Positions 39,963 through 58,371 of a stretch of 64,000 bases of DNA are shown here, piece after piece. The notes below the pieces were generated by a model. The model was not told the DNA's origin. It saw nothing but the letters and a program-made list of their open reading frames with translations, and made no database searches. A program made the position numbers and the translations under genes. The stretch is taken from assembly GCA_030628945.1 (NCBI GenBank), contig DAOVPY010000001.1, forward strand, positions 51,302 through 115,301, given 5' to 3'. Origin of the DNA: Candidatus Nealsonbacteria bacterium. Its GTDB lineage: Bacteria > Patescibacteriota > Minisyncoccia > Minisyncoccales > DAOVPY01. Within the stretch, counting starts at the first letter, position 1, and the number at the start of each line of letters is the position of its first letter.

Positions 39963-41659
39963 AAATAATTTTAATAGGATTTATATTTTTAATTTTGCCG
40001 GTTTTTGTTTTTGCCGATGAATTCGGTCAGAAAACAACTTTTTTTGTTGATTCTGATTTTGACGCTTTAACAAGGGAACAGGTGTTTTCCACTTTGCGCG
40101 CAATGTCTTCCTCGGCTTATTTTTATATTGATAATAATTACTGGTCTGAATTAACCGAGCCGGAACGAGAAGTGATGAGTTATGCCTTGCAAAATTTAGG
40201 CGCGGAATTTGATACCGTAATTTATCCAACATTGACAAGGACTTTCGGTTTTGAATACAAACCCGGGATTGACAAAGATACCCGGGTTACGGTTTTAATC
40301 CATCCGATGTTGAAAAGCGTTGGCGGTTATTTTACCACCTCTGACGAATATCCGCTGTTGCAAGTTCCCAATTCCAATGAGCGGGAGATGGTTTATTTGA
40401 ATTCTCATTATCTTAATACTTTTTTAATAAAAAGTTTTTTAGCCCACGAACTGGTTCATTTGATCACTTTCAACCAGAAAGACAGGAAATTCGGGCTCAG
40501 CGAGGAAATTTGGCTGAACGAAGCCCGGGCAGAATACGCTCCTTTCTTGTGCGGCTATGACGAAGATTACGAAAACAGCAATCTCCGTCTCAGGGTCAGG
40601 GATTTCCGGGAAGAGCCCAATGATTCCTTAGTTGAATGGAAAAATCAAAAAGCGGATTATGGAGTGATTAATTTATTCATTCGCTATTTGGCGGAGCATT
40701 ATGGAACAGAGATTTTAATTGACTCTTTACATTCTGCCAAGACCGGGTTGGATTCTTTAAATTTTGCTTTAACTAAAAACGGCTTTGAGCAGGATTTTTC
40801 CCAAATTTTTACTGATTGGACCATCGCGGTTTATCTTAATGACTGTTCGCTTTCCGAGAAATATTGCTATCTTCATCCCGATTTAAGCGCTTTTCATATT
40901 ACTCCTCAAATTAATTTTCTTCCAATAATTGGCGAGAGTTCTTTGGCAGTGAGCCAAACCGTGAAAAATTGGTCCGGGAATTGGTATAAATTTATTGGCG
41001 GCAACAAGGCCTTGAAAGTTGAATTTATCGGCATTTCAGAAACAGAATTTAAGATTCCCTATATTATTCAGGATACTGCTCAGGATGTCGCCCTAAATTT
41101 TTTAGAACTTGATGTTGACGGGAAAGGAGTAATTTATGTTCCGGATTTCAATAAAAAAAATATCTCTCTTACTATTATTCCTTCTATCCAGAGAGAAATA
41201 TCCATTGAAGACGATATGTCTTATTCTTTTTCCTGGTTTGCTTCCACCGTGGAAAGGACTCCTGGCCAGGAACAAGAATTAATTCAGGAATTCCTTGTTC
41301 AGATTGAGAATCTTAAACTCCAGATTGCCAATATCCAGGCAAAAATCAATATTCTTTTAGCTCAAAAACAAACAAAAAAAATAGACGCTTGCGCGTTTCT
41401 TCCGACAAAAATAGAAAATAATCTTTATTATGGAATGGGAAATAATCCGGAAGTTTGCCTATTACAGCAGTTGCTAAAGGAACAGGGGAAAGACATTTAT
41501 CCCGAGGCCCTGGTAACCGGCTATTTCGGGCCTTTGACCCGGGCCGCGGTTATTAGATTTCAGGAGAGATATTCCGCGGAAATTTTAGAGCCGTTGGGAT
41601 TAAAAAAGCCGACTGGCTATGTCGGCCCCTCCACCCGCGCCAAATTAAATCAATTATAG
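39947..41659 (+). CDS. Secreted protein with HExxH zincin-like motif and C-terminal peptidoglycan-binding domain
   Basis: Signal peptide. FLAHELVHLITF (HExxH). The C-terminal LLQQLLKEQG...GYFGPLTRAAVIRFQERY...TGYVGPSTRAKLNQL is shared with the giant protein (TGYVGSTTRAKLNEL). Confidence 0.4.
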   Translation: MAKNLKIILIGFIFLILPVFVFADEFGQKTTFFVDSDFDALTREQVFSTLRAMSSSAYFYIDNNYWSELTEPEREVMSYALQNLGAEFDTVIYPTLTRTFGFEYKPGIDKDTRVTVLIHPMLKSVGGYFTTSDEYPLLQVPNSNEREMVYLNSHYLNTFLIKSFLAHELVHLITFNQKDRKFGLSEEIWLNEARAEYAPFLCGYDEDYENSNLRLRVRDFREEPNDSLVEWKNQKADYGVINLFIRYLAEHYGTEILIDSLHSAKTGLDSLNFALTKNGFEQDFSQIFTDWTIAVYLNDCSLSEKYCYLHPDLSAFHITPQINFLPIIGESSLAVSQTVKNWSGNWYKFIGGNKALKVEFIGISETEFKIPYIIQDTAQDVALNFLELDVDGKGVIYVPDFNKKNISLTIIPSIQREISIEDDMSYSFSWFASTVERTPGQEQELIQEFLVQIENLKLQIANIQAKINILLAQKQTKKIDACAFLPTKIENNLYYGMGNNPEVCLLQQLLKEQGKDIYPEALVTGYFGPLTRAAVIRFQERYSAEILEPLGLKKPTGYVGPSTRAKLNQL

Positions 41660-42883
41660 TAATTGCTCGGTTTGCTGGAGCATTTTTTCCAGAGTAAATT
41701 CTTTTTTTATTTTCTCTCTGGCTTGGATACCCATATTTTTGGCCGACCCGGAATTTTTCAGCAGCCAAATAATTTTTTCAGCGATCATCTGCGGATTTTT
41801 GGATTCTATCAAAAGTCCGTTTTTTTTATCCTCTATAATTTCGGGAAGCGCTCCTGCTTTTGCGGCTATAATTGGCAGTTCAGCTGCCATTGCCTCAAGA
41901 ATTATCCAGGGGAATCCCTCTTTTAGAGAAGGTAAAACAAAAATATCAAACGCCTTGAGATAGCGAAAGGCGTCAGGAATTTGGCCAGTCAAGAAGACCG
42001 TATTTTGAAGGTGATATTTTTTAATTAAAGATTCCAATTGAGGCCGCTGACGACCCTCGCCGATAATGATGAATTTTAAATGAATTTTGTATTTTGTATT
42101 TAAGATATGGGCGGTTTCTATGAAATAGGGAAGCCCTTTTGTTTTGTAAAAATTGGCAACGCAGCCTATGATTTTAAAGTTTTCAACAATTTCAAAAGTC
42201 GCGCTTCCGAAAGTTACGCGCGATAGGTACGTTCGTGCTTCTTCTTTTGGAATAAATTCCAATTGCTGTATGTCAATTCCATTGTAGATTTTTACTAATT
42301 TTTTTGGCAAAGCGATTTTCCGCTTTATTGCTGTTTGAAAATCAAATTCCGAATTAACAATAATTTTATCCTTAAAGCGCGCGAAAAATTTTTCCATTGA
42401 AAAAATAATTTTATTTTGCCACCAAGGTCGGGGGTCGTTAAACGCCCAGCCGCCAATCCTGTAGATAGTTTGTAGTTTGTGATTTGTAGTTTGTAGTTTG
42501 CCCGCCCCGCGATGAGCGTTAGCGAATTTTGCGGGGTAGTTTGTAGTTTGTAGTTTGTAGAAAAAAGAGGCGATACTGCCTAATAAGCCGGCGGTGGTGG
42601 AGCACAAGAATAGAATATCCGGCTTTTCTTTTTTCAGCAAATTATAAATTTCTTTGATTGCCAAAATTGTCTGCCAGGGCAAAGGCGTTCTCCTCATATG
42701 CTTCAGATACACGGGTGTTACGCGTGTATTTTTAAGTTTTTCAAATAGTTCTCCATTTGCGCCTCCCGTTGCAACCAAAATTTCATACTTTTGCGCAGTA
42801 AGATATTTTGCGACCTCATAGACATACCTTTGCGCTCCGCCAAATTCCGATTGAGTAATAATGAATAATATTTTTTTAGCCAT
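41654..42883 (-). CDS. GT4-family glycosyltransferase with an in-frame heptamer-repeat/hairpin insertion in the interdomain linker
   Basis: EGFPWIILEAMAAELPIIAAKAGALPEII (the E-x7-E GT4 motif). N-terminus MAKKILFIITQSEFGGAQRY. The ORF-track GTG start at 42916 lies inside the upstream palindrome, so the ATG at 42883 is preferred. Insert encodes LQTTNYPAKFANAHRGAGKLQTTNHKLQT. Confidence 0.8.
   Translation of the reverse strand: MAKKILFIITQSEFGGAQRYVYEVAKYLTAQKYEILVATGGANGELFEKLKNTRVTPVYLKHMRRTPLPWQTILAIKEIYNLLKKEKPDILFLCSTTAGLLGSIASFFYKLQTTNYPAKFANAHRGAGKLQTTNHKLQTIYRIGGWAFNDPRPWWQNKIIFSMEKFFARFKDKIIVNSEFDFQTAIKRKIALPKKLVKIYNGIDIQQLEFIPKEEARTYLSRVTFGSATFEIVENFKIIGCVANFYKTKGLPYFIETAHILNTKYKIHLKFIIIGEGRQRPQLESLIKKYHLQNTVFLTGQIPDAFRYLKAFDIFVLPSLKEGFPWIILEAMAAELPIIAAKAGALPEIIEDKKNGLLIESKNPQMIAEKIIWLLKNSGSAKNMGIQAREKIKKEFTLEKMLQQTEQLL
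42461..42560. repeat. Composite in-CDS insert: GTAGTTT/AGTTTGT heptamer array (x~6) - GC hairpin CCCGCCCCGC...GCGGGG - heptamer array (x~3.4)
   Basis: Direct read on the + strand. On the gene's sense strand the heptamer is AAACTAC, the same unit as at 54387 and 57963. Confidence 0.85.
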
Positions 42884-42890
42884 ACATTTT

Positions 42891-42922
42891 GGGCTGTGCT
42901 TAACCGAGTTAAGCACAAGCCC
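42891..42922. promoter_or_regulatory. 32-bp palindromic 5'-leader element (sense: GGGCTTGTGCTTAAC-TCG-GTTAAGCACAGCCC), 7 nt upstream of the GT4 ATG; overlaps the stop codon of the upstream EamA gene
   Basis: Direct read; the central TTAACTCGGTTAA is identical in sense orientation to the element at 32721-32752. Confidence 0.6.
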
Positions 42923-43782
42923 TAAGAGATTGAAATTAAAAATACGCCGACGACCATTATTGCCGCTCCCAAAAGTTTTGGCTTGGTGTTTTTTTCTTTA
43001 AAAATCAGAAATCCCAAGACAACGCTGAAAAGAGCGGAGCTTCGTTTGAGAGAAATAATATAGGGCACCAAAGCTATATTTATGGCAATCATTTGAGAAA
43101 GCAGGGTTCCGGCTGAGAAAATTCCAATTGGAATAAGCCATTTGAAATTGGATTTTATTCCTTGAAATCCAATTTTTGATTTGAAGCAAACCAAAGACAA
43201 GAATATAAGCGCGGTTAGACTCTTGGAAATTATTAAAAAAGTAACTGGATTTGAGTTCTGGATAGCTATTTTGTCAACATTACAAGCGATTGAATAAATA
43301 AAAGCCACCATAAGCATTGCCTGAGCGCCTTTGTTTTTTAACAGCGATTTTAATGGCTCCAATATTTTATTTTTTTCTTTTATATTCAGGATATATACTC
43401 CTAAAACAATGGAAATTATCCCTGAAATTCCCAAAAAAGAAGGGAATTCGCCTAAAATTAAATCAGAAGTAAAAATTAGAAATAAAGGAGTAAGCGCAAG
43501 CAAGGGGGCGACCAGAGAGAGTTCAGAGAGATTTAGCGCTTTCATAAAAAGATAAATAGCAGTTACGCTTAAGACAACTGTAACTGACATAGTCCACCAG
43601 AATGTAAAATTGAGAGCGGCCCATTCCGACCAAAACAAAGCCAATAGGAAAAAGGGCAGGGCAAAGAACGAATAAGCAAAACCGCTGATGTATTCATCAG
43701 TTTTATTGACAGATTTCTTGCTAGCCGCGCCCATCAGGGAATGAAAAAATCCGCTTAAAATTCCTAATGATAACCAAAGCAT
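42922..43782 (-). CDS. EamA/DMT-superfamily membrane transporter
   Basis: About 10 TM helices arranged as two EamA-like halves. Confidence 0.55.
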   Translation of the reverse strand: MLWLSLGILSGFFHSLMGAASKKSVNKTDEYISGFAYSFFALPFFLLALFWSEWAALNFTFWWTMSVTVVLSVTAIYLFMKALNLSELSLVAPLLALTPLFLIFTSDLILGEFPSFLGISGIISIVLGVYILNIKEKNKILEPLKSLLKNKGAQAMLMVAFIYSIACNVDKIAIQNSNPVTFLIISKSLTALIFLSLVCFKSKIGFQGIKSNFKWLIPIGIFSAGTLLSQMIAINIALVPYIISLKRSSALFSVVLGFLIFKEKNTKPKLLGAAIMVVGVFLISIS

Positions 43783-44696: not shown

Positions 44697-44700
44697 AAAT

Positions 44701-48320: not shown

Positions 48321-49445
48321 ATGTTTTTTGTCCACCCGCAAATTAGGTTTAATAATTTATGGAGAGCGGTTTTCTCTTTATTTAAGAGGTCTGATTTAGA
48401 GCGCCTTAATCAGAATCTTTCTGAATACTTTCCAAAAAAGCAGTTCATTTTTACTGATATGGGTAGGTCGGCTTTTAAGGTTATAATTGAAAAATTCAAT
48501 CTGCAAAATTCTGAAATTCTTTTTCCGGCTTATATCTGCGATATTTTTTACCCAATTTTGAAGCAATATAACATTAAGCCAATTTTTTTGGATATTGATT
48601 TAGAGACCTTTCATATCAGAATTGATGAGATTAAGAAAAAAATCACTGCCAAAACCAGAGCAATTTTAGTTTGCCATACTTATGGTTTGCCCGCGGATAT
48701 CCAGGAAATTAGAAAAATTGTCGGTCAGGATATTTCCATTATTGAAGATTGCGCCCATTCTTTTGGCGCTGAATGTGATGATAGTTTTGTCGGAAATTTA
48801 GGGGATGTTTCTTTTGTAAGTTTATACAAGCAATTTCCCTGTTTAAGGGGCGGGTTGCTGGTTTGTCCCCAGGATTGGCGAATTTCTCTGCCAAAAACCT
48901 GTTTTAATTTTCGGGATTTTATTTCTTTTCTAAATTGCTTCTCGCCTTTTGCCTGGTTTTTTAAAAAATTCGGCGGGAAAGTGGCGCCTAAAATGATTAG
49001 AAAAGAAAAATCATTGAGGCCCACGAGGATTAACAGAGTTTCTTTAAATCTTTTTTCTGATTTTCTGAATGATTTTGAGAAATCATTGAAAAGGAGAAAA
49101 GAATTAGCCCTATTTTTTCAGGAAGAACTTAAAAAATTAGGATTTGAGGTTCAAAGCCATGAAGATAATATATTTTGTTATCTCTCGGTTTTAGTTCATA
49201 AAAATTTAGATGGGAAAAGAGATGAAATTATCCAGAAATTGAGAAAATACCGTGTTTTTTGCACCCGAATGTGGCATACCCCTATTATTTTAAATAAACA
49301 AGCCCGAAAAGAATATGAGATTAATTTAGATGAGTTTCCCAATGCCGTGGAAGCGGCTAAAAGAATTATCAATTTTCCTTTGCAAAATTACTACGCAAAA
49401 AAAGATATTGAAAAAATTATTAAAGCGATAAAAAAAGTTATATGA
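48321..49445 (+). CDS. DegT/DnrJ/EryC1/StrS-family PLP-dependent sugar aminotransferase
   Basis: IIEDCAHSFGA...VSFVSLYKQFP (PLP-lysine region), ~370 aa. Confidence 0.6.
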   Translation: MFFVHPQIRFNNLWRAVFSLFKRSDLERLNQNLSEYFPKKQFIFTDMGRSAFKVIIEKFNLQNSEILFPAYICDIFYPILKQYNIKPIFLDIDLETFHIRIDEIKKKITAKTRAILVCHTYGLPADIQEIRKIVGQDISIIEDCAHSFGAECDDSFVGNLGDVSFVSLYKQFPCLRGGLLVCPQDWRISLPKTCFNFRDFISFLNCFSPFAWFFKKFGGKVAPKMIRKEKSLRPTRINRVSLNLFSDFLNDFEKSLKRRKELALFFQEELKKLGFEVQSHEDNIFCYLSVLVHKNLDGKRDEIIQKLRKYRVFCTRMWHTPIILNKQARKEYEINLDEFPNAVEAAKRIINFPLQNYYAKKDIEKIIKAIKKVI

Positions 49446-50728
49446 GCCCCCACACCAAACAACCACATACTTCGTTTTTTGACGCCAAGGGCGATAGTGG
49501 TTGTTATGGTGTAGGGGTGAGGATTTTAATGCCGGTTCTGCATTACGACCCGGTGATTGGCGGTTTGGAAATTTGGACCAAAAATATCGCTGAGCGGCTT
49601 TCTGAAAAAGCGGAAATTTTTGTTATTACGGGCAGAGTACGCAATCAGCCAAGACAAGAAATTAAAAGTCGGGTTTACATCTTTCGGACATCTTTATTTT
49701 CCTTAAAAAATCTTTCTTATTCCTCGCCAATTTATATTCTGACTACTCTGCCTTTTATATTTTTTCAATCCCTATTATTGATTAAAAAATATAGGTTCAA
49801 CCTATGCCATTGCCAGGGTTTTTTGAGTTCGTTTCTGGGGTATTTGCTGTTTAAGCTTTGTAAAGTTTCTTATGTTGTTACGGTTCAGCGTCAGGAAAAA
49901 AAGAGTTTTTTGAGAAAGTTGGTTTATAAAAACGCGGTTTGTTGTATTGCCGCAAGTTCATACATTAAAAGATATTTTGAAGAAATTGGAGTTAAAAATA
50001 TAGAAATAATTCCCAACGGAATTGATATAGATAGGTTTCAGGTTTCAGGTTCCAGGTTTAAGATGAGAGAAAAATTAGGCGTAAAAGACGAATTTTTGAT
50101 AATGACCGTGGCCCGGTTGGAAAAAGTAAAAGGAATAAAATATCTCATAAAAGCAATCCATATTCTAAATACAGCAGCGAGGACGGGCCTCACTGCTGGC
50201 TTCGGGAATATAAGATACATAATCATTGGGGAGGGGAGCGAGAGAAAAAATTTGGAAAATTTGGTTAAAGAATTGAATTTAGAGAAAAAGGTTCACCCCG
50301 TTAAACCCTCCGCTAAAAGCGGAGGAATTCCGCCAAAAGCGGAATTGTTTAACAGGGTAAAATTTTTGGGAGAAATTCCCAATGAAAAAATTCCAGAGTA
50401 TCTTACGGCAGCGGATTGTTTTGTTCTGCCTTCTATCAAAGAAGGATTTGGCATTGTTCTTTTGGAAGCAATGGCCGCGGGTGTTTCTGTAATTGCGACA
50501 AATGTTGGGGGAATTCCTGATTTAGTTGAAGACGGGAAAACAGGGATTTTAATTGAACCAAAGAATCCCAAAGAGATTGCCGAAGCAATAATGAAAATTT
50601 ACCCCCAGCCAAAATTTACACAAAATTTAACAAAAAACGCGCGAAATAATTTAGAAAAATATAATTGGCAAAATATCGCAGAAAAAGTTTATGAAAATTA
50701 TATTAGCCACTCCAATTTATCCGCCTGA
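49442..50728 (+). CDS. GT4-family glycosyltransferase carrying an in-frame heptamer array and an in-frame palindromic-element insertion
   Basis: EGFGIVLLEAMAAGVSVIATNVGGIPDLV. Inserts: GGTTTCA x4 (RFQVSGSRFKM) and a 66-nt element encoding HPVKPSAKSGGIPPKAELFNRV. Confidence 0.75.
   Translation: MSPHTKQPHTSFFDAKGDSGCYGVGVRILMPVLHYDPVIGGLEIWTKNIAERLSEKAEIFVITGRVRNQPRQEIKSRVYIFRTSLFSLKNLSYSSPIYILTTLPFIFFQSLLLIKKYRFNLCHCQGFLSSFLGYLLFKLCKVSYVVTVQRQEKKSFLRKLVYKNAVCCIAASSYIKRYFEEIGVKNIEIIPNGIDIDRFQVSGSRFKMREKLGVKDEFLIMTVARLEKVKGIKYLIKAIHILNTAARTGLTAGFGNIRYIIIGEGSERKNLENLVKELNLEKKVHPVKPSAKSGGIPPKAELFNRVKFLGEIPNEKIPEYLTAADCFVLPSIKEGFGIVLLEAMAAGVSVIATNVGGIPDLVEDGKTGILIEPKNPKEIAEAIMKIYPQPKFTQNLTKNARNNLEKYNWQNIAEKVYENYISHSNLSA
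50034..50060. repeat. Heptanucleotide tandem repeat GGTTTCA x ~3.9 inside the GT4 CDS
   Basis: Direct read: ggtttca ggtttca ggttcca ggttta. Confidence 0.85.
50291..50360. repeat. Small palindromic element (family copy 4) inserted in-frame in the GT4 CDS: GTTCACCCCGTTAAAC - two tandem hairpins - GTTTAACAGGGTAAA
   Basis: gGTTCACCCCGTTAAACc-ctccgctaaaagcggag-gaa-ttccgccaaaagcggaa-ttGTTTAACAGGGTaaa. It shares termini and the CCGCTAAAAGCGG hairpin with the intergenic copies at 23737 and 34234. Confidence 0.8.
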
Positions 50729-51791
50729 TATCGGCGGTCCCGCCCAATATGTTAAGAATTTAGCCGAAGGATTAAACAAAAAAGATTTTGAAATAGAAAT
50801 TCTTTCTTATCAAAAATTAAAAAATATTCCTCAGCCATTCAGATTTTTTATTTATCTATTGAGGGTTTTTAAAAAAGCGAAACATTGCGATATTGTCTAC
50901 GCTTTTAATTTGATTAGCTGCGGCTTGCCCTCTTGTTTAGCCGCTAAAATTTTAAGGAAAAAATTTTTATTGCGGTTGGGCGGCGATTTTCTCTGGGAAA
51001 GGGCGGTGGAGCAAGGAAGGACCAAAAAGCCGTTAAGAGAATATTATCAGGAAGCAAGGAGCTTAAAAGAGAAATTTTGGATAAAATTGATAAAAATTGT
51101 TCTTAATAGAGCCGACAAGATTATTTTTACCGGCAATTTTCAAAAAAACATTTATCAGAAACAATTTGGTCTCAAAGAGGAAAAAATTGTTATTATTCCA
51201 AATCCTTTTCCTGAAATTAAAACAACCGACAACCGACAACCGACAACCGACGACCAATTACTCTATGCCGGACGCTTGCTGAAGCTTAAAAATTTAGATA
51301 GTTTAATTAAAGCAGTGGCAGATATTGAACAAGAAACACAGGGTTCAAAACTTTCTTTAAAAATTATCGGCGAGGGTCCTGAAGAAAAGAATTTAAGATT
51401 ACAGCTCGCAAATCTGAAACTGCAAGATAAGGTGATTATTGAAAAGCCGGTTTCCCATAGGAATTTATTAAACGAAATCCAAAAGAGTTATCTTTGCGTT
51501 TTGCCTTCTTTGACCGAGATTTCGCCGAATTTCGCGTTAGAGTGTTTGGCGCTGCGGAAGCCGATATTATTAACCAAAGAAACCGGTTATTATGAAAGAT
51601 TCAAAGAAAATTTGATTTTCCTTAATCCTCAAAATAAAAAAGACATGGAAGAAAAAATACTTTATCTTTTAGACGCAGAAAATTATCAAAATTATCTCGG
51701 AAAAATAAAGAAAATAAATATTACTCGGGATTGGCGAGGTGTTGTTGCGGAACATTTGGCCGTCTTTAGAAATTTATGTTCTATTGGCTAA
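50691..51791 (+). CDS. GT4-like glycosyltransferase with an in-frame CAACCGA heptamer array
   Basis: Two-Rossmann GT-B layout (…IIPNPFPE… / …IIGEGPE…). Insert encodes KTTDNRQPTTDDQ. Confidence 0.55.
   Translation: MKIILATPIYPPDIGGPAQYVKNLAEGLNKKDFEIEILSYQKLKNIPQPFRFFIYLLRVFKKAKHCDIVYAFNLISCGLPSCLAAKILRKKFLLRLGGDFLWERAVEQGRTKKPLREYYQEARSLKEKFWIKLIKIVLNRADKIIFTGNFQKNIYQKQFGLKEEKIVIIPNPFPEIKTTDNRQPTTDDQLLYAGRLLKLKNLDSLIKAVADIEQETQGSKLSLKIIGEGPEEKNLRLQLANLKLQDKVIIEKPVSHRNLLNEIQKSYLCVLPSLTEISPNFALECLALRKPILLTKETGYYERFKENLIFLNPQNKKDMEEKILYLLDAENYQNYLGKIKKINITRDWRGVVAEHLAVFRNLCSIG
51223..51257. repeat. Heptanucleotide tandem repeat CAACCGA x4 (+1 degenerate) inside the GT CDS
   Basis: Direct read: caaccga caaccga caaccga caaccga cgaccaa. 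Confidence 0.85.
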
Positions 51792-52774: not shown

Positions 52775-52775
52775 A

Positions 52776-53915
52776 ATGAAAAAAGTTTTATTTATTTCTG
52801 TTACAAATTTGAATTTAAAGAGTAATGTCCCTTTGCGTCTCAAGAAAAAATTTGAGGGATTAAGCAAGGGAATAAAACCTTATGTTCTGGCCAAGGGCAG
52901 GCCTCTTCATAAAGAAAAATGGGGAGCTGATTTTTTTCTTTTGCCTCCGAATTTTTTATTCTGGCCATGCGCCTTTTTTCTGGCTTTTTATCTTTGTTTA
53001 ACAAAAAAAATAGACGCGATAGTGTGCCAGTCGCCGTTAGTTGAGGGTTTTACTGGTTCAATTTTGAAAAAATTATTAAAGAAAGAATTGATTGTGGAGA
53101 TTCACGGCGACTGGATTGAAGGGCCTTTTCTTTCAAAAAAAAGAAAACTCGCCTTTTTAGAAAGAAAGATAGTTCCGATTTTAGCGAAAATAAGTTTTAG
53201 AAACGCGGATAAAATCAGGGCAGTGGCAGGATGTTTAGCAGAGAAAGCAAAAAAAATCGCTCCGAAAAAACCCTATTTTATATTTCCCACTTTTACTGAT
53301 TTAAGTATTTTTTTATATGAAAAAGAAACAAAGTTTGATAATTTTATTTTATTCGTAGGGCATTTAGAAAAAGTAAAAGGAGCAAATACGCTTATGGAAG
53401 CGTTCCATAAGCTAAATTTTCAATTTTCAATTTCCCTGGACCCCGCTTCGCAGCGGGGGACTCCCCGTAGGGTTGCTTTTCAATTATTGATTATCGGAGA
53501 AGGAAGCGAGAGGAAAAATCTTGAGTTGCAAGTTGCAAGTTATAAGTTACAAGATAAGGTGGAGTTTAAGGGAAAGTTATCATTGGAAGAAACCAAAGAT
53601 ATTATGAAAAATTGCTATTGTTTAGTTCTGCCTTCTTTGTCAGAGGGTTTGCCAAGGGTTATTATGGAAGCAATGGCTTTGGGCAAGCCATTGATTGCCA
53701 GCAATGTCGGCGGCATTCCTGAACTTATAAAAGACAATGAAAATGGATTTTTGTTCCGGATTGGTGATTCCCAGGAATTAGCCGAGAAATTAAGGGTTTT
53801 ATTAAGAGATAAAAAAATGGCTCAAGAAATGGGACAAAAAGGCAGAGAGTTTGTTAAAGAAAATTTTTCTAATGAAAAATATCTCCAAAATTACATACAA
53901 ATGATAAATTCATGA
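52776..53915 (+). CDS. GT4-family glycosyltransferase with an in-frame hairpin insert and heptamer array
   Basis: EGLPRVIMEAMALGKPLIASNVGGIPELI. Inserts encode FQFSISLDPASQRGTPRRVAFQLL and ELQVASYKLQDKV. Confidence 0.75.
   Translation: MKKVLFISVTNLNLKSNVPLRLKKKFEGLSKGIKPYVLAKGRPLHKEKWGADFFLLPPNFLFWPCAFFLAFYLCLTKKIDAIVCQSPLVEGFTGSILKKLLKKELIVEIHGDWIEGPFLSKKRKLAFLERKIVPILAKISFRNADKIRAVAGCLAEKAKKIAPKKPYFIFPTFTDLSIFLYEKETKFDNFILFVGHLEKVKGANTLMEAFHKLNFQFSISLDPASQRGTPRRVAFQLLIIGEGSERKNLELQVASYKLQDKVEFKGKLSLEETKDIMKNCYCLVLPSLSEGLPRVIMEAMALGKPLIASNVGGIPELIKDNENGFLFRIGDSQELAEKLRVLLRDKKMAQEMGQKGREFVKENFSNEKYLQNYIQMINS
53417..53489. repeat. In-CDS GC-rich double hairpin (CCCCGCTTCGCAGCGGGG, GGGGACTCCCC) flanked by direct repeats of TTTTCAATT (target-site-duplication-like)
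   Basis: aaaTTTTCAATTTTCAATTtccctggaccccgcttcgcagcgggggactccccgtagggttgcTTTTCAATTattg. Confidence 0.75.
53526..53560. repeat. Heptanucleotide tandem repeat GTTGCAA/GTTACAA x ~5 inside the GT4 CDS (same unit family as parB-upstream and pth repeats)
   Basis: Direct read: gttgcaa gttgcaa gttataa gttacaa gataagg. Confidence 0.85.
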
Positions 53916-54973
53916 AATTGCTTATAGTTACTCAAAAAGTTGATATTAACGATGATAATTTGGGTTTTTTCCATTGCTGGCTGGAGAAATTCTCAGAAAA
54001 ATTGGAAAAACTTTATGTAATTTGTCTTTGGGAGGGGAGACATAATTTACCTGACAATGTTCAGGTTTATTCTTTAGGGAAAGAGAAAGGATATTCAAAA
54101 ATGAGGCAGTTTTTTCTATTACAAAAATTTCTTTTCAAAATTTTAAGAGATGCGGATGGCGTTTTTGTTCATATGTGCCCGATTTACGCTATTCTTAGCT
54201 TTCCTTTGGCAAAGTTGTTCAGAAAAAAGACGCTTTTATGGTATCTTCACAAATCAGTAAATTGGAAATTGAAATTAGCCGGAAAATTAACAGATAAAAT
54301 CTTAACTGCTTCTTCTGAAAGCTGCCGGTTAAAAAACAGGAACAAGATTGAAATAGTGGGGCATGGAATAGACATAGATAAATTCCAAACTACAAACTAC
54401 AAACTACAAACTACAAACTACAAAATACTTTGCGTTGGGAGGATATCGTTGATTAAAGACCAAGAAACGTTGATTGAGGCGGTTGATATTTTAATCAACC
54501 AAAAGGATATTAAAAATTTGGAACTAAAAATCATTGGCAGTCCCCTGGAGAATTATGAAAAGGAATATTATAAAAAAATAAAAAATTTGGTAAAAGATAA
54601 AAATTTAGAAAATTATGTAGAGTTTTCAGGAAGTATTTTTCATAAAGAAATGCCGCAGTATTATCAGAATAATGATGTTTTGATAAATTTGTGTCCAACC
54701 GGAGGAATAGACAAAGTTGTTCTGGAAGCAATGGCTTGTAAAATGCCGGTTTTACTTTGTAATAGAGCTTTTGAAAAGGATTTAGCGGAATATAAGGATA
54801 TATTGTTTTTTCAGGAAAAAAATTCGCAAAATCTGGCTCAAAAAATTTTAGGGCTGAAGAATCTCAATAATAAAATTAAGATTGAGCTCGGAAATTATTT
54901 AAGAAATCAGATTGTTCAAAACCATGATTTGGATAATTTAGTAAAAAAAATAGTTAATGAGTTTAAAAAATAG
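53912..54973 (+). CDS. Glycosyltransferase (GT4-like, C-terminal Rossmann domain recognisable) with an in-frame AAACTAC heptamer array
   Basis: IDKVVLEAMACKMPVLL; insert encodes KFQTTNYKLQTTNYK directly after the GIDIDKF motif. Confidence 0.5.
   Translation: MKLLIVTQKVDINDDNLGFFHCWLEKFSEKLEKLYVICLWEGRHNLPDNVQVYSLGKEKGYSKMRQFFLLQKFLFKILRDADGVFVHMCPIYAILSFPLAKLFRKKTLLWYLHKSVNWKLKLAGKLTDKILTASSESCRLKNRNKIEIVGHGIDIDKFQTTNYKLQTTNYKILCVGRISLIKDQETLIEAVDILINQKDIKNLELKIIGSPLENYEKEYYKKIKNLVKDKNLENYVEFSGSIFHKEMPQYYQNNDVLINLCPTGGIDKVVLEAMACKMPVLLCNRAFEKDLAEYKDILFFQEKNSQNLAQKILGLKNLNNKIKIELGNYLRNQIVQNHDLDNLVKKIVNEFKK
54387..54427. repeat. Heptanucleotide tandem repeat AAACTAC x5 (+ degenerate unit) inside the GT CDS
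   Basis: Direct read: aaactac aaactac aaactac aaactac aaactac aaaatac. Confidence 0.9.
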
Positions 54974-55751
54974 AATCAAGACAATTATTTTTTGGGGATT
55001 GAATTTGATTTCAGAGGATTTTCCTCCAAGAAAAGCCGCTATTTTAATGTATCACTCGGTGGATTACAACCCGATATTTTTTACCGTGAAGCCGGAAAAT
55101 TTTCAGAGACAGATGGATTATTTAAAGGAAAAGAAATATAATGTTATTTCTTTGGCAAGGTTGATAGAATGTATAAAAAGCAAAAATATTCCTTTGAAAA
55201 CCGTTGTTTTGACCTTTGATGACGGATATGAAGACAATTATTTTAATGTTTTTCCGATTTTAAAGAAATATAATTTTCCAGCAACATTTTTTTTAATCAC
55301 CGGCAATATGGGCAGAAAAAACGTTTCAGTGGTATCCGGAAATATCTACCCCCAAATACTGAACTGGCGGCAAGCGCAAGAAATGCATAGTTCGGGCTTA
55401 ATTGATTTTGAACCCCACACCGTCAGCCATCCAAAACTGCGCAAAATTTCTTTAAGAGAAGCCGAGCGAGAAATTTTAGATTCAAGAAAAACTATTGAAG
55501 AAAATCTAAACAAGAAATGTTCTTTTTTTGCTTATCCCTATGGAGAGCATAATCATGAAATAGAAGATATTTTGGAGCGGAATGGTTTTTTGGGCGCGGC
55601 AACCGTTAATCAAGGATTGGTCGGACCTAAGGATAATTTATTGCGATTAAAAAGAAATTCTATTGATTATTCGGTTGATTTTATTCAATTTAAGGCAAAA
55701 TTGAATCTTTCCATAGATATTTTTAAGTTCATATTTCGTAATTCAGGGTAA
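54957..55751 (+). CDS. Polysaccharide deacetylase (CE4, NodB homology domain)
   Basis: VLTFDDGYEDNY (TFDDG motif 1) and HTVSHP motif. Confidence 0.75.
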   Translation: MSLKNRIKTIIFWGLNLISEDFPPRKAAILMYHSVDYNPIFFTVKPENFQRQMDYLKEKKYNVISLARLIECIKSKNIPLKTVVLTFDDGYEDNYFNVFPILKKYNFPATFFLITGNMGRKNVSVVSGNIYPQILNWRQAQEMHSSGLIDFEPHTVSHPKLRKISLREAEREILDSRKTIEENLNKKCSFFAYPYGEHNHEIEDILERNGFLGAATVNQGLVGPKDNLLRLKRNSIDYSVDFIQFKAKLNLSIDIFKFIFRNSG

Positions 55752-55771
55752 AATAATTAAAAATTTCAACA

Positions 55772-57214
55772 ATGAACGATATTAAAATTTTGTTAAATTA
55801 TAATTTTAATCCGGCAGATTTAGATTTTTCTTCCGATAAATTTGAAGATTTATTTAATTTCAAGCGGCGAGATTCTTGTTTTGCTTTTGTTTACGAAGAC
55901 GATGGCGATATCTACGCTATTCGCGATCATTTTGGCCAGATTCCTCTTTATTATCGCGCTGACGCAAAGATAAGATTTTCAACATCTTTAATTAGCCTTT
56001 TAGACTCTGAATGCCATGTTAATTTTAAAGGATTAAAACATTTTTTAAGTTTTGGCACTTCCAGGATTATTCCGCCTTTTGACGAGATAAAGGTTGTTCC
56101 TTCTGGTTCAGTGATAAAAATAAATAAAAAGACAAAAAAAGTTAAATTGTTGTACCAATATCTTCCCATGGCAAAACATTATAAATTCAAACGTTTTAAT
56201 GATCATGTTGATAAATTTGAAGAGTTATTTTCAGAGGCAATTCAAAGAACAATAAAAAACAAGGAAGTCGGATTGCTTTTAAGCGGCGGTATTGATTCCG
56301 GGTTAACCGGATATTATTTAAAGAAACAGGGGATAAGGATTAATGCTTATAGCTCGGCTCCTCACGGAAGGACAAGTTCGGAAATAAAATTTTCAAAGAT
56401 TAATGGCAAAATTATAAAACCCGAAAATCATTTTATTAGTTATTTAGAAAAAGAAGATTTTTTATTTTCTTTTGAAAATTTATTTTCATTTTACAAAACC
56501 ATCAACGGCATCGACACTAGTTTAGGGGTAGTAAAATTATATCAGGATTTCCCGATTGAAAATGAAAAACAGGTCTATTATGCTCAAAATTCCGATACGG
56601 CGAATTGTTCTGTTTCGTCCCAATATGTAGCATATTTCTCAAAATTTATTTTCTATCCTTGCAGAAAATTTTTGCATAGATATTTATCGCAAAAGGATTG
56701 TCTCAGAAATTATTTAAATTTTGTCAGCAAAGGATTAATCAATAAGAATGAAGAATTTGAGAAAAGGTTTCCTAAAAAAGATTTTTCAGATATAGAGAGG
56801 TTGTCATTAGCCGGAATACTTATTGTTCACAGCCAGAGCGACAGCGAGGTAGTTACCGATCCCTTGATTCACCAGAATATTTTAGTTTCTAATCCGTTTT
56901 TTGATGTGGATGTGGTAGAATTTTTTCTTGGAATTCCATTAAGATATCGTTTAGCATTTCAAAAGAAATCGCCGACTAAGATAGTTATTGAAAAATCAGC
57001 GCCAAAAAAGTTGGCTGCAAGATTTTTTCCAGAAGAGGTTTATAAACGGAAAAAAGGGTTTAATGTTCCTCTTGGAAAATTGCCAGATAATTTTTTTGAC
57101 ATTCTGCCTTTAAAAATAGACGATATAATAGTGGATAATTTACACGAAGATCAGAAATTTTCCTTAAAAGTATTATTAGAATGGTGTAGAAAGTTTAATA
57201 TAAAAGAGTTATGA
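55772..57214 (+). CDS. Asparagine synthetase (AsnB)-like amidotransferase lacking the N-terminal catalytic Cys
   Basis: PP-loop LLSGGIDSGLTGYYL. AsnB-like N-terminal fold, but the sequence starts MNDIK (no Met-Cys). Confidence 0.5.
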   Translation: MNDIKILLNYNFNPADLDFSSDKFEDLFNFKRRDSCFAFVYEDDGDIYAIRDHFGQIPLYYRADAKIRFSTSLISLLDSECHVNFKGLKHFLSFGTSRIIPPFDEIKVVPSGSVIKINKKTKKVKLLYQYLPMAKHYKFKRFNDHVDKFEELFSEAIQRTIKNKEVGLLLSGGIDSGLTGYYLKKQGIRINAYSSAPHGRTSSEIKFSKINGKIIKPENHFISYLEKEDFLFSFENLFSFYKTINGIDTSLGVVKLYQDFPIENEKQVYYAQNSDTANCSVSSQYVAYFSKFIFYPCRKFLHRYLSQKDCLRNYLNFVSKGLINKNEEFEKRFPKKDFSDIERLSLAGILIVHSQSDSEVVTDPLIHQNILVSNPFFDVDVVEFFLGIPLRYRLAFQKKSPTKIVIEKSAPKKLAARFFPEEVYKRKKGFNVPLGKLPDNFFDILPLKIDDIIVDNLHEDQKFSLKVLLEWCRKFNIKEL

Positions 57215-58371
57215 AATTAACTTATATTGCCAATATTCGCCTTCCAACTGAAAAAGCGCATGGAGTAGGAAGAATGAAGCTTTGTGAGGCTTTTGCCAAA
57301 CAAGGGATAGAGGTTGAATTAATTCATCCTTGGCGTTTCAACAAAATAAAAAAAGGCCCCTTTGATTATTATGGGGTTAAAAGAAATTTTAGGATAAAAA
57401 AATTACATCATCTTGATTTCATTCCTTTAGATAAGTTTTTAGGCCCTTTGGCTAGTTGGATTGGCTCTTTAGAATTTTCATTTATTAGTTTTTGTTATAT
57501 CTTGACGAGAGGGTTTTTTAGGTCAAATATTGTTTTTTTCTCCCACGACCATTTTCCTTTATTTTTGTTTTCGTTTTTCTCTCAGAATACGTTTTATGAC
57601 ATCCACGATTTTCCACGTCTTAAAACTTTTTTGCATAAATTTTATTATCAGCTTCTCTTTAAAAGATTAAAAGGAATTGTCGTTACTAATTCTTGGAAAA
57701 AGAAAGAATTAGAGAATATTTTTGGAATTGTTGGCAAAAAAATTCTAATAGCTCCCAATGGAGTTGACATTGAGGAATTTGATATTAGCCAAACCAAAGC
57801 GGACTGTCGGAGAAAATTAGGGTTGTCCCTTAAAGAAAAGATTATTTTGTATACAGGTCATCTTTATTTTTGGAAAGGCGTGCAAGTTTTAGCCGAAGCG
57901 TCGCAATACCTCCCGAAGGATGTTAAAGTTTATTTTGTCGGCGGTACAAAAGTAGATATTAAAAACTACAAACTACAAACTGCAAACTACGAACTAAATA
58001 TAGTCGGGCATAAACCGCATAAAGAAATCCCTTACTGGTTGAAAACAGCTGATGTTTTGGTTTTGCCAAATACGGCTAAAGAAGATATTTCAAAATATTG
58101 GACGTGTCCCCTGAAACTCTTTGAATATATGGTTTCAAAAAGGCCGATTGTCGCTTCAAATTTGCCGTCAATAAGAGAAATCCTCAACGAGTCAAATTCG
58201 GTTTTGGTAAAGCCAGACGACCCTGAAAGTTTGGCAAGCGGTATAATCAAGGTTTTAGCAGGTAAAACCTTGGCTGAAAAAATTTCAGACAGGGCGTATG
58301 AGGATGTTATGGAATACACTTGGGATAAGAGGGCTAAGAAGATTCTTGAGTTTTTGGGCCGCGAAGATTAA
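57211..58371 (+). CDS. GT4-family glycosyltransferase with an in-frame AAACTAC heptamer array
   Basis: C-terminal GT4 region (LKLFEYMVSKRPIVASNLPSIREIL). Insert encodes KNYKLQTANYELN. Confidence 0.6.
   Translation: MKLTYIANIRLPTEKAHGVGRMKLCEAFAKQGIEVELIHPWRFNKIKKGPFDYYGVKRNFRIKKLHHLDFIPLDKFLGPLASWIGSLEFSFISFCYILTRGFFRSNIVFFSHDHFPLFLFSFFSQNTFYDIHDFPRLKTFLHKFYYQLLFKRLKGIVVTNSWKKKELENIFGIVGKKILIAPNGVDIEEFDISQTKADCRRKLGLSLKEKIILYTGHLYFWKGVQVLAEASQYLPKDVKVYFVGGTKVDIKNYKLQTANYELNIVGHKPHKEIPYWLKTADVLVLPNTAKEDISKYWTCPLKLFEYMVSKRPIVASNLPSIREILNESNSVLVKPDDPESLASGIIKVLAGKTLAEKISDRAYEDVMEYTWDKRAKKILEFLGRED
57963..57997. repeat. Heptanucleotide tandem repeat AAACTAC x ~5 inside the GT4 CDS
   Basis: Direct read: aaactac aaactac aaactgc aaactac gaactaa. 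Confidence 0.85.

What the first reader, a model, noticed from the sequence alone, without database searches (positions are those of the whole stretch)
41654..58371. Every GT4 glycosyltransferase in the cluster carries an in-frame heptanucleotide tandem array and/or GC-hairpin insert at the same interdomain position
The sense-strand arrays are:
- AAACTAC x5 (54387-54427, KFQTTNYKLQTTNYK).
- AAACTAC x5 (57963-57997, KNYKLQTANYELN).
- AAACTAC arrays flanking a GC hairpin (42461-42560 on the minus strand, LQTTNYPAKFANAHRGAGKLQTTNHKLQT).
- GGTTTCA x4 (50034-50060).
- CAACCGA x4 (51223-51257).
- GTTRYAA x5 (53526-53560), plus a TTTTCAATT-flanked double hairpin (53417-53489).
All lie just after the (N/H)G(I/V)D..F motif that opens the C-terminal Rossmann domain. 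A 7-nt unit is not a multiple of 3, so gain or loss of one unit would frameshift the gene. This is the classic architecture of phase-variable contingency loci in surface-glycan genes. The direct-repeat flanks also look like target-site duplications of tiny inserted elements.
Basis: partly seen in the sequence, partly recalled or inferred. Interest (0 to 1): 0.75.

Follow-up and report, generated by a model that had tools for sequence, protein, structure and literature searches.

The report
In-frame heptamer arrays in CPR genes
The 7-base tandem repeats and GC hairpins in these sugar-transferase genes are real, but they belong to a genome-wide and lineage-wide class of tiny repeats that also sit in frame inside essential genes, so they are probably tolerated selfish or mutational DNA and not on/off switches.

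Summary
All six GT4 glycosyltransferase genes carry in-frame heptanucleotide arrays at the stated coordinates, and three also carry GC hairpins. The "same interdomain position" claim does not hold: there are three recurrent sites plus one N-domain site.

The window comes from a Patescibacteria (CPR, Nealsonbacteria-like) metagenome scaffold. Period-7 arrays occur throughout it. Two lie in frame inside the essential peptidyl-tRNA hydrolase gene, one supplies the ftsZ stop codon, and two fill intergenic spacers.

In other CPR genomes the same AAACTAC array lies in frame in MurB, FolD, aminoacyl-tRNA synthetases, Pol I, RecG, PGK and RF. Only 3 of 30 hosts are glycan genes.

One hairpin belongs to a widespread 32-41 nt element, CTGGAC-minihairpin-GGACTCCCCGNAGGGTTGC. 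It sits inside heptamer arrays, replaces 2 nt, and adds 30, 33 or 36 nt. It is found in RpoB, RpoC, UvrA and LeuRS. An ortholog pair shows it present versus absent.

Arrays mostly replace native residues without lengthening the protein, and their units turn over among orthologs.

Phase variation is not supported: independent assemblies are identical, essential genes are hosts, and many arrays are imperfect. It cannot be excluded without reads. GT4 enrichment within glycan clusters is real (11/11 versus 0/19) and unexplained.

I found no description of in-frame heptamer arrays or this element in CPR.

The parts
41654..42916 (-). GT1: GT4 glycosyltransferase (420 aa) carrying an N-domain insert
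   Evidence: Pfam Glyco_transf_4 plus Glycos_transf_1. The N-domain spans 193 aa against 169 profile positions, so there is a net insertion.
42536..42560 (-). AAACTAC array, 3.6 perfect copies (5' half on the coding strand)
   Evidence: TRF; sequence.
42500..42535 (-). 36-nt GC hairpin (family A: CCCCGCAAA..TCGCT..CGCTC..CGCGGGGCG) between two in-phase AAACTAC arrays. It adds 12 codons.
   Evidence: Sequence. There is a second copy in the window. Fold.
42466..42500 (-). AAACTAC array, 5 copies at 85% identity (3' half on the coding strand)
   Evidence: TRF.
49442..50728 (+). GT2: GT4 glycosyltransferase (428 aa)
   Evidence: Pfam. The Glycos_transf_1 match is split by an insert.
50033..50059 (+). 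GGTTTCA array x3.9 in the interdomain linker (site A)
50172..50207 (+). GC hairpin insert in the loop before the IIGEG strand (site B)
   Evidence: Fold z = -3.1. Alignment.
50295..50357 (+). Double hairpin (three-way junction) insert of about 22 aa after the site C helix
   Evidence: Fold -36.2 kcal/mol, z = -6.96. Alignment.
50691..51791 (+). GT3: GT4 glycosyltransferase (366 aa)
   Evidence: Pfam.
51222..51257 (+). CAACCGA array x4.9 in the interdomain linker (site A)
52776..53915 (+). GT4: GT4 glycosyltransferase (379 aa)
   Evidence: Pfam. AF2 model, pLDDT 91.9.
53413..53435 (+). AATTTTC (TTTTCAA) array, left half, at site B
   Evidence: Ortholog P0140 has an uninterrupted AATTTCC x4 array here.
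53436..53476 (+). 41-nt copy of hairpin element B (CTGGAC-CCCGCTTCGCAGCGGG-GGACTCCCCGTAGGGTTGC). It replaces AA of one array unit and adds 13 aa.
   Evidence: It forms a disordered loop in the model, pLDDT 55-68.
53477..53487 (+). Right remnant of the interrupted TTTTCAA array
53524..53560 (+). GTTRCAA array x4.3 to 5 (imperfect), encoding part of helix 246-255 (site C)
53912..54973 (+). GT5: GT4 glycosyltransferase (353 aa)
   Evidence: Pfam.
54386..54428 (+). AAACTAC array x6.1 (5.6 perfect copies) that replaces the interdomain linker without changing its length
   Evidence: Ortholog alignment.
57211..58371 (+). GT6: GT4 glycosyltransferase (386 aa)
   Evidence: Pfam.
57963..57997 (+). AAACTAC array x4.9 (imperfect) at site C
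11527..12096 (-). Peptidyl-tRNA hydrolase gene. It holds two in-frame heptamer arrays (11838-11860 GTTACAA x3.3; 11951-12003 TTTCAAT x8). This is the same phenomenon in an essential gene.
   Evidence: Pfam 1.7e-62. Sequence. Colinear with PDB 7y52, with only 2 aa net extra.
6643..6677 (+). AGTTACA x5 array that fills the parA-parB spacer and abuts the parB start codon
18601..18627 (+). AATAATC x3.9 array. Its TAA supplies the ftsZ stop codon.
9957..9978 (.). TAAAAAT x3.1 array that fills the topA/dprA spacer
32371..32404 (+). Second copy of hairpin family A, in frame in a DeoR-HTH protein gene

Best explanation
The arrays and hairpins are local instances of a genome-wide, lineage-wide class of very small repeats in Patescibacteria (CPR). 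They are not a device specific to glycan genes.

(1) Heptanucleotide arrays. I infer that they arise and are re-homogenised in situ by a slippage or template-switching process with a strong 7-nt preference. This is the same preference seen in the long simple-sequence repeats and STRRs of cyanobacteria, Beggiatoaceae and Bacteroidota.

CPR genomes are almost all coding. So the copies that survive are those that pass three filters:
- They are in the orientation without stop codons.
- They keep the reading frame.
- They lie in permissive surface segments.

There they mostly overwrite native residues rather than lengthen the protein. Once a segment is quasi-periodic the process perpetuates itself. 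Orthologs therefore carry different units, or decayed 7-aa periodicity, at the same sites.

(2) GC-rich hairpin elements. These insert into the arrays. The best defined is a 32-41 nt element, CTGGAC-minihairpin-GGACTCCCCGNAGGGTTGC. It replaces 2 nt of a unit, adds a multiple of 3 nt, has no stop codon in any of its six frames, and is translated as a disordered loop.

GT4 enzymes are rich hosts for two reasons. Their interdomain linker, the loop before the second C-domain strand and the following surface helix are dispensable in sequence and even in length. Paralogs also inherit array-bearing sites.

Shown: the anatomy, the distribution, the filled and empty sites, the frame and orientation rules, and the structural position.

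Inferred: the slippage or template-switch mechanism, neutrality, and how the hairpin moves.
For: Period specificity:
- 8 perfect period-7 arrays in the window against 0 expected; the other periods give about none.
- In 264 kb of other CPR loci there are 14 further period-7 arrays with many different units, against 0 for periods 5, 6 and 8-12.

Not glycan-specific:
- The window's pth gene has two arrays.
- An array supplies the ftsZ stop codon, and arrays fill the parA/parB and topA/dprA spacers.
- Pfam hosts: MurB x2, FolD x2, ValRS, IleRS-like x2, LeuRS, AlaRS x2, PheRS-beta, PolA, RecG, PriA, UvrC, PGK, RF, TsaD, KsgA, RNase H and others. Only 3 of 30 are glycan genes.

Orientation rule:
- Every intragenic unit is stop-free in sense. 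5 of the 6 distinct intragenic units have stops in antisense.

Replacement rather than insertion:
- The GT5 linker has the same length as in 120 orthologs.
- Pth is colinear with PDB 7y52.
- Pfam spans for MurB, FolD, PGK, RF, KsgA and AlaRS are no more than about 3 aa longer than the matched profile stretch (shorter for MurB, PGK and RF).
- The site C array lies in a confident helix.

Turnover at the same sites:
- AAACTAY, AAATTCC and AAAATTC arrays occur at the GT5 linker in orthologs.
- NYELRIT, NYQLSII and NYKLQIT arrays occur at GT4 site C, and about 15 orthologs have the helix deleted.

Hairpin element:
- A clean 30-nt indel between 89%-identical orthologs.
- An empty array in P0140 against the filled window copy.
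- At least 83 unique copies in metagenomes. Lengths are 32, 35, 38 or 41 nt. In 33 of 34 clean cases exactly 2 nt are replaced. The net gain is a multiple of 3 in 34 of 34.
- 53 of 71 copies are inside long ORFs, in all six frames.
- Hosts include RpoB, RpoC, UvrA, LeuRS and Pth, the last at the same site as the window's pth array.
- The mini-hairpin stem is kept through compensatory changes in 68 of 73 copies.
- The element forms a coil with pLDDT 55-68.

No copy-number difference between assemblies.
Against: - GT4-type genes are much more often hosts than their neighbours in the glycan clusters I could see: 11 of 11 against 0 of 19 other genes. Tolerance and shared ancestry may not fully explain this.
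- The array DNA of GT5 and of its 63%-identical ortholog P0007 is almost identical. That implies ongoing homogenisation, exchange or constraint at the DNA level, which a purely neutral view does not predict.
- No read-level data were available, so array mutability was not measured.
- The slippage or template-switch step and the hairpin's way of moving are inferred. No associated enzyme was sought.
- The loci used for the CPR survey were chosen because they contain an array or an element (ascertainment). The metagenome contigs with element B were not taxonomically assigned.
Confidence: 0.72

Rival explanations
1. Phase-variable contingency loci. Slipped-strand mispairing changes the heptamer copy number. 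This frameshifts individual GT4 genes on and off, so the population displays varied surface glycans, for example to escape phages or host recognition.
For: - The unit length is not a multiple of 3, and the arrays lie inside ORFs of glycan genes.
- Three arrays are perfect, with 3.6 to 5.6 copies.
- GT4-type genes are hosts in 11 of 11 cases against 0 of 19 neighbouring cluster genes.
- One gene elsewhere, an HtrA-like protease in L016, is split exactly at an AAACTAC array. So frameshifts at such arrays do occur.
Against: - The same arrays lie in essential single-copy genes in this window (pth) and across CPR: aaRS, MurB, PolA, RF, and RpoB/RpoC for the embedded element.
- Three arrays are identical in a second sample's assembly.
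- Identical proteins occur on 2-3 contigs, with no near-identical length variants in 15 billion proteins.
- All six genes are ON.
- Half of the arrays carry point substitutions.
- The tracts are mid-gene and short. Orthologs keep frame and length.
- Only 1 of about 45 sense arrays in the sampled genomes (all phyla) interrupts a gene.
Confidence: 0.12
2. An ordinary conserved protein linker. The repeats are selected at the amino-acid level as a flexible hydrophilic spacer, and the DNA periodicity is incidental.
For: - Linker length is conserved among 120 orthologs.
- The site C array is modelled as a regular helix with high confidence.
Against: - Orthologs do not conserve the peptide. They carry different heptamer units or unrelated sequence at the same site.
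- The periodicity is exact at the DNA level, not just at the protein level.
- The same DNA unit occurs in unrelated proteins, in intergenic spacers and in other phyla.
- The array DNA is nearly identical between 63%-identical orthologs, without the synonymous divergence expected of a conserved peptide.
Confidence: 0.04
3. Recombination modules. Shared arrays at domain boundaries of paralogous GT4 genes act as short homology patches. These let N- and C-domains, or C-domain segments, be shuffled between paralogs and so diversify glycan synthesis.
For: - Arrays recur at the domain boundary (site A) and at two C-domain sites in paralogs.
- Related units (AAACTAC, AAGTTAC, AAATTAC, AAATTCC) occur in different GT4 genes.
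- Array DNA is near-identical between divergent orthologs.
Against: - Within the window the three AAACTAC arrays are at three non-equivalent positions (N-domain, linker, site C), so they could not mediate productive swaps.
- The three site A arrays have unrelated units.
- No chimeric gene was observed.
- Arrays in single-copy housekeeping genes cannot serve this purpose.
Confidence: 0.05

Closest known systems
Heptanucleotide long simple-sequence repeats / STRRs. Examples: cyanobacterial STRR (Calothrix PCC 7601), GGGNATC repeats of Xanthomonas and Nostoc (PMC4692102), and TAACTGA repeats of Beggiatoaceae, Cyanobacteria and Bacteroidetes (PMC4679880).
   Same: - Tandem arrays with a strict 7-nt unit, a few to about 10 copies, and many loci per genome.
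- Several unit sequences occur in one genome.
- Some arrays abut start or stop codons, as with parB and ftsZ here.
- The very same AAACTAC array occurs in Calothrix, Potamolinea, Hormoscilla, Parabeggiatoa and Chitinophagales.
   Different: - The described families are reported as mainly intergenic and under-represented in coding regions.
- In this CPR lineage most copies are inside ORFs, in frame, in the stop-free orientation, and they replace native residues, essential enzymes included.
- I found no paper linking heptanucleotide repeats with Patescibacteria.
Small dispersed repeats (SDR) of Nostocaceae (Elhai et al. 2008, Genome Res 18:1484). The paper could not be read here. It is cited, and the details below are from my own knowledge.
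   Same: - Very small (tens of nt) dispersed hairpin-forming elements, often embedded in tandem heptamer repeats.
- Stems are kept through compensatory changes.
- Nested insertions occur. The window copy has an enlarged inner hairpin, and L246, L136 and L223 have tandem or nested copies.
   Different: - The element here is 32-41 nt, against 21-27 nt for SDRs.
- It occurs in contigs whose host genes look like CPR rather than Nostocaceae. SDRs were reported as confined to Nostocaceae.
- It is mostly intragenic, and its length classes preserve the reading frame.
- Sequence relatedness to SDR1-8 could not be tested.
Rickettsia palindromic elements (RPE; Ogata et al. 2000; reviewed in PMC10969869)
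   Same: - Palindromic repeats inserted in frame into unrelated protein-coding genes, housekeeping genes included, in a reduced genome.
- They are translated as extra peptide at positions compatible with the fold.
   Different: - RPEs are about 100-150 bp, are specific to Rickettsia, and are not associated with heptamer arrays.
- The element here is 3 to 4 times smaller, and its target is a tandem array.
SSR-mediated phase-variable glycosyltransferase genes of Haemophilus, Neisseria, Campylobacter and Helicobacter
   Same: A simple-sequence repeat whose unit is not a multiple of 3, lying inside glycosyltransferase ORFs of a surface-glycan cluster.
   Different: - Known loci have long perfect tracts, usually near the 5' end. 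Their tract length varies between cells and strains, and they are confined to dispensable genes.
- Here the tracts are short, mid-gene and often imperfect. They are identical between assemblies, and the same repeat class occupies essential genes.

Membership tests
SSR phase-variable contingency locus | Repeat tract within an ORF or promoter whose unit length is not a multiple of 3 | tested here: met
   7-nt units inside six intact GT4 ORFs.
SSR phase-variable contingency locus | Tract length varies within populations or between close strains, giving ON and OFF alleles | tested here: inconclusive
   A second sample's contig is 100% identical over three arrays. The five GT4 proteins that could be looked up (GT2-GT6) are identical on 2-3 contigs each and are singletons at 90% identity; GT1's called sequence was not in the collection. 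Raw reads were not available.
SSR phase-variable contingency locus | Repeats concentrated in dispensable surface or contingency genes and avoided in essential genes | tested here: not met
   Arrays lie in pth in the window. In other CPR genomes they lie in MurB, FolD, aaRS, PolA, RF, PGK, TsaD and others, and 27 of 30 hosts are non-glycan.
SSR phase-variable contingency locus | Long, perfect tract, typically close to the 5' end of the ORF | tested here: not met
   3.6 to 5.6 perfect copies at best. Four of the eight GT arrays are imperfect. All are mid-gene.
Heptanucleotide LSSR / STRR-type repeats | Dispersed tandem arrays with a 7-nt unit, over-represented relative to other periods | tested here: met
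   8 against 0 expected in the window, and other periods absent. 14 against 0 in other CPR loci.
Heptanucleotide LSSR / STRR-type repeats | Predominantly intergenic location, as described for Xanthomonas, Nostoc and Beggiatoaceae | tested here: not met
   10 of 13 window arrays are intragenic. In other CPR loci 28 of 40 arrays are internal to long ORFs.
SDR-type very small mobile elements (Nostocaceae) | Dispersed element of tens of nt with a conserved hairpin supported by compensatory changes | tested here: met
   83 unique copies. 68 of 73 keep a stem with different base pairs: GC/GC, CC/GG, TC/GA, GCC/GGC, CGCAC/GTGCG.
SDR-type very small mobile elements (Nostocaceae) | Embedded within tandem heptamer repeats; evidence of mobility | tested here: met
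   Flanks continue the same array in phase. Filled against empty sites: P0036/P0018 and window/P0140.
SDR-type very small mobile elements (Nostocaceae) | Sequence identity with SDR1-8 and restriction to Nostocaceae | not testable with these tools
   The Elhai 2008 text and sequences are not held. The hosts here are CPR-like, so at most this is an analogue.
Rickettsia palindromic elements | In-frame insertion into unrelated protein-coding genes, including housekeeping genes | tested here: met
   53 of 71 copies are inside ORFs. Hosts include RpoB, RpoC, UvrA, LeuRS and Pth.
Rickettsia palindromic elements | Element of about 100-150 bp in Rickettsia encoding a conserved peptide | tested here: not met
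   The element is 32-41 nt, is used in all six frames, and is in a different phylum.
GT4 (GT-B) glycosyltransferase (host genes) | Glycos_transf_1 C-domain, with or without a Glyco_transf_4 N-domain, above Pfam thresholds | tested here: met
   All six ORFs meet this. The AF2 model has two Rossmann-like domains, pLDDT 91.9.

The most novel reading that the evidence does not exclude
Patescibacteria carry a previously undescribed, lineage-wide system of sequence turnover made of two parts.

- A self-perpetuating 7-nt 'overwriting' process converts permissive coding segments into heptamer arrays without changing protein length.
- A frame-preserving hairpin element of about 32 nt specifically invades those arrays. 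It would be among the smallest mobile elements known and the first of its kind outside cyanobacteria.

Together they continually remodel surface loops and linkers of proteins, including RNA polymerase, aminoacyl-tRNA synthetases and cell-wall enzymes.

In GT4 glycosyltransferases, where arrays persist at three hot spots in every gene examined, the system may have been co-opted for glycan diversification.
Probability: 0.45. Interest if true: 0.78.

Novelty: new variant of a known kind. Interest (0 to 1): 0.62.

Why it matters
If the pattern holds in an unbiased census, it matters in four ways.

- Genome-reduced episymbiotic bacteria would tolerate, and perhaps depend on, a steady flow of tiny repeats into the coding sequence of even their most essential genes.
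- This would explain part of the odd insertions and low-complexity segments seen in CPR proteins.
- It would affect gene calling, homology detection and structure prediction for this huge uncultured radiation.
- The heptamer arrays with their hairpin passenger would link CPR to cyanobacteria, Beggiatoaceae and Bacteroidota, where the same units occur. That raises the question of a shared mutational machinery or horizontal spread.

For the finding as written, the practical message is a caution. A non-triplet repeat inside a glycan gene is not by itself evidence of phase variation.

Tried and rejected
- Chance: rejected by shuffles.
- Known RNA families: Rfam at gathering thresholds finds only the tRNA.
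- Hairpins as ordinary terminators: rejected for the intragenic ones, because they lie inside intact ORFs and are translated in frame. True intergenic hairpins at 13207, 21708 and 34245 are separate features.
- Flanking repeats as target-site duplications: rejected. The flanks continue a pre-existing array in phase, and the element replaces 2 nt. An empty site confirms this.
- Conserved peptide linker: rejected by the ortholog alignments.
- Searching for frameshifted genes at AAACTAC arrays gave one case, in a protease and not in a GT.
- Searching the fetched loci for hairpin family A gave nothing outside the window. The GT2 hairpin motif gave only scattered short matches. The spread of those two families therefore remains unknown.
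- Elhai 2008 could not be read.
- A GC-island scan was too noisy to be useful beyond pointing at the inserts.
- I did not use the third homolog search, the representative-library search or the fold search, because the conclusion did not depend on them.

Full report
**Origin and setting.** The window is part of a 316-kb metagenome scaffold (ENA ERZ23498683, sample SAMN18200505). The closest named relatives of its proteins are Candidatus Nealsonbacteria and other Patescibacteria, that is, CPR bacteria. GC content is 0.32-0.47. The region 41.6-59.4 kb is a surface-glycan cluster. It holds six GT4 glycosyltransferases plus sugar-nucleotide enzymes, deacetylases, an aminotransferase, a radical-SAM protein, an Asn-synthase-like protein and a PMT_2 transferase.

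**Check of the observation.**
- All six GT4 ORFs are intact.
- Perfect period-7 arrays of at least 3 copies number 8 in the window against 0 in Markov shuffles. Periods 4-6 and 8-12 give 0-2.
- The positional claim fails. In an alignment of the six proteins, the features fall at three recurrent sites plus one N-domain position.
  - Site A is the interdomain linker right after NG(I/V)D..F (GT2, GT3, GT5).
  - Site B is the loop before the IIGEG strand (GT2 hairpin; GT4 array plus hairpin).
  - Site C is the helix that follows GEG (GT4, GT6).
  - GT1's 35-residue array-hairpin-array block is in the N-terminal domain.
One is a very stable three-way junction (z = -6.96).

**The arrays are not confined to glycan genes.** In the same window:
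- The essential peptidyl-tRNA hydrolase gene (Pfam 1.7e-62) contains two in-frame arrays, TTTCAAT x8 and GTTACAA x3.3.
- It still aligns colinearly with a solved Pth structure, with only 2 extra residues.
- An AATAATC array provides the ftsZ stop codon.
- AGTTACA x5 exactly fills the parA-parB spacer and abuts the parB ATG.
- TAAAAAT x3 fills the topA/dprA spacer.

These came from many CPR classes and also from cyanobacteria, Parabeggiatoa, Chitinophagales and other Bacteroidota, Megasphaera and others.
- In CPR, 28 of 40 arrays are internal to long ORFs and always read KLQTTNY. In the other phyla the figure is 17 of 80, several of which are spurious ORFs made of repeats.
- Pfam identifies the CPR hosts as MurB (twice, same site), FolD (twice, same site), ValRS, IleRS-like, LeuRS, AlaRS, PheRS-beta, Pol I, RecG, PriA, UvrC, PGK, a release factor, TsaD, KsgA, RNase H, a Mur ligase and others. 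Only 3 of 30 are glycan genes.
- In those loci, 14 further perfect period-7 arrays with many different units occur, 9 of them in ORFs. There are none for periods 5, 6 or 8-12.

**Rules the arrays obey.**
- Seven and three are coprime, so three units pass through all three frames. An array is therefore tolerable in a gene only if the unit is stop-free in that orientation.
- Every intragenic unit here is stop-free in sense, and 5 of the 6 distinct intragenic units contain stops in antisense. This explains the 'sense-strand' regularity without invoking function.
- Arrays mostly replace native sequence rather than add to it.
  - The GT5 linker is as long as in 120 orthologs.
  - Pth is colinear with 7y52.
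  - The Pfam spans of array-bearing MurB, FolD, PGK, RF, KsgA and AlaRS are no more than about 3 aa longer than the matched profile stretch, and shorter for MurB, PGK and RF.
  - In an AlphaFold model of GT4 (pLDDT 91.9), the site C array is part of a confident helix.
- Orthologs show turnover at the same sites.
  - At the GT5 linker I found AAACTAY x6 in a 63%-identical ortholog, with array DNA nearly identical to the window's. I also found AAATTCC x7.7 and AAAATTC arrays, and decayed 7-aa periodicity.
  - At GT4 site C I found NYELRIT, NYQLSII and NYKLQIT (ACAAATT x4.6) arrays and hairpin-bearing variants. About 15 orthologs lack the helix altogether.

**The hairpins.** The GT4 hairpin is a copy of a dispersed element with consensus CTGGAC-(mini-hairpin)-GGACTCCCCGNAGGGTTGC.
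- Mobility:
  - Two orthologs that are 89% identical at the DNA level differ by a clean 30-nt indel of this element inside an AAATTCC array.
  - Ortholog P0140 has an uninterrupted AATTTCC x4 array where the window has the 41-nt copy.
- Abundance and length:
  - Lengths are 32 (52 copies), 35 (22), 38 (4) and 41 nt (1).
  - Where the flanks are a clean array (34 cases), the element replaces exactly 2 nt in 33. The net gain is 30, 33 or 36 nt, a multiple of three in 34 of 34.
- Coding context:
  - 53 of 71 copies are inside long ORFs, in both orientations and all six frames. None of the six frames contains a stop.
  - Hosts include RpoB, RpoC, UvrA (twice), LeuRS (twice), an IleRS-like enzyme, UDP-GlcNAc 2-epimerase and Pth (twice). 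The Pth copies sit at the site where the window's pth has its GTTACAA array.
- Structure:
  - The central mini-hairpin keeps a stem in 68 of 73 copies through different base pairs, which is compensatory variation.
  - In the model the element is a low-confidence surface coil.

The GT1 hairpin belongs to a second family with another in-frame copy in a DeoR-type gene at 32371-32404. It adds exactly 36 nt between two in-phase AAACTAC arrays. The GT2 hairpins were not traced outside the window. The flanks are interrupted arrays, not target-site duplications.

**Phase variation.** What could be tested does not support it.
- A contig from a second sample is 100% identical over 2,857 nt, including three arrays.
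- The five GT4 proteins that could be looked up (GT2-GT6) occur as identical sequences on 2-3 contigs each and have no near-identical length variants in the protein collection. GT1's called sequence was not in the collection.
- All six genes are in frame.
- Half of the arrays are imperfect, and the tracts are short and mid-gene.
- The same repeat class occupies genes that cannot be switched off.
- Among about 45 sense-oriented AAACTAC arrays in the sampled genomes (all phyla), one splits a gene, an HtrA-like protease in L016. Frameshifts at arrays therefore happen, but rarely.
- Without reads I cannot exclude low-frequency switching.

**What remains unexplained.**
- Within the glycan clusters I could inspect, GT4-type genes carry arrays in 11 of 11 cases (window 6, L003 3, L005 2). 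None of 19 neighbouring genes does.
- I attribute this to two things. The three sites are dispensable, as shown by length variation and deletion among orthologs. Paralogs also inherit self-perpetuating arrays. This is inference.
- The near-identity of array DNA between 63%-identical orthologs points to ongoing homogenisation or exchange.

**Mechanism proposed (inferred).** A replication slippage or short-patch template-switching process with a 7-nt register converts quasi-periodic native sequence into arrays.
- Examples of such native sequence are GAATTTCCTGATTTT (EFPDF) at site B and AAA-CTN-CAA (KLQ) at site C.
- The process keeps re-homogenising the arrays.
- Selection in a compact genome keeps only the stop-free, in-frame, length-neutral outcomes at permissive sites.
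- Hairpin elements then use the arrays as landing sites.

**Comparison with what is known.**
- Heptamer repeats are described as over-represented but mainly intergenic in Xanthomonas, Nostoc, Beggiatoaceae and some Bacteroidetes (PMC4692102, PMC4679880).
- Very small hairpin elements embedded in heptamer arrays were described in Nostocaceae and reported as confined to them (Elhai 2008, from my own knowledge).
- In-frame palindromic inserts in housekeeping genes are known from Rickettsia, where the elements are about 150 bp (PMC10969869).
- No paper in the library combines heptanucleotide repeats with Patescibacteria.
- I therefore rate this a new variant of known kinds, not a contingency locus.

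Noticed in passing
window 17662-18627: FtsZ is only 316 aa and ends right after the FtsZ_C domain, because a TAA within an AATAATC x3.9 array terminates it. The usual C-terminal linker and FtsA-binding peptide seem to be missing or cut off by the array.
   Followed up: partly
window 6632-6677: An AGTTACA x5 array exactly fills the parA-parB spacer and runs into the parB ATG. This resembles the TAACTGA arrays just upstream of start codons in Beggiatoaceae, so it may have a translational or regulatory role.
   Followed up: no
window 50295-50357: The 22-aa insert in GT2 folds, as nucleic acid, into a very stable three-way junction: two hairpins, CTCCGC-TAAAA-GCGGAG and TTCCGC-CAAAA-GCGGAA, closed by GTTAAAC/GTTTAAC (-36.2 kcal/mol, z = -6.96). 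It looks like a further small-element family, but no other copies were found in the loci held.
   Followed up: partly
L016 443-463: An HtrA-like serine protease gene of a Saccharibacteria MAG is split into two frames exactly at an (AAACTAC)x3 array. It may be a slippage frameshift, a pseudogene or an assembly error.
   Followed up: partly
L058 (reverse strand, about 6586-6606): An AAACTAC array encodes part of the N-terminal leader just before a type IV pilin-like FTLVETLIA motif.
   Followed up: no
L020 5853-5880 and L109 2587-2614; L023 3507-3527 and L059 7494-7521: MurB in two different CPR classes, and FolD in two CPR genomes, carry the AAACTAC array at the same residue position. This is either ancient inheritance with homogenisation or recurrent origin at a hot spot.
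   Followed up: partly
L246 about 4457-7414; L136 704-765; L223: Two copies of the 32-nt hairpin element lie close together or nested within one gene (UvrA in L246). This is reminiscent of the nested SDR insertions described in Nostoc.
   Followed up: no
window 18725-18751, 21708-21737, 34245-34291, 13207-13237: Very stable GC hairpins lie in intergenic or gene-start positions, for example CCCGCCCCCTCCTTTAGAGGAGGGGGCGGG at -35.5 kcal/mol. They are probably terminators. The one at 18725 lies inside the mechanically called nrdD ORF, so the true nrdD start is likely further downstream.
   Followed up: no
window 26826-29182: A 762-aa ORF has long 9-nt (AATCAGACG x14.8), 6-nt (GAGCCG x7.8) and 9-nt (GACGACCCG x3.2) in-frame repeats. 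It is a low-complexity, probably surface protein, and a different repeat class from the heptamers.
   Followed up: no
window 5687-5771: A tRNA-Leu(CAA) gene on the minus strand overlaps the 5' end of the mechanically called parA ORF (5654-6631), so the real parA start must be further downstream.
   Followed up: no
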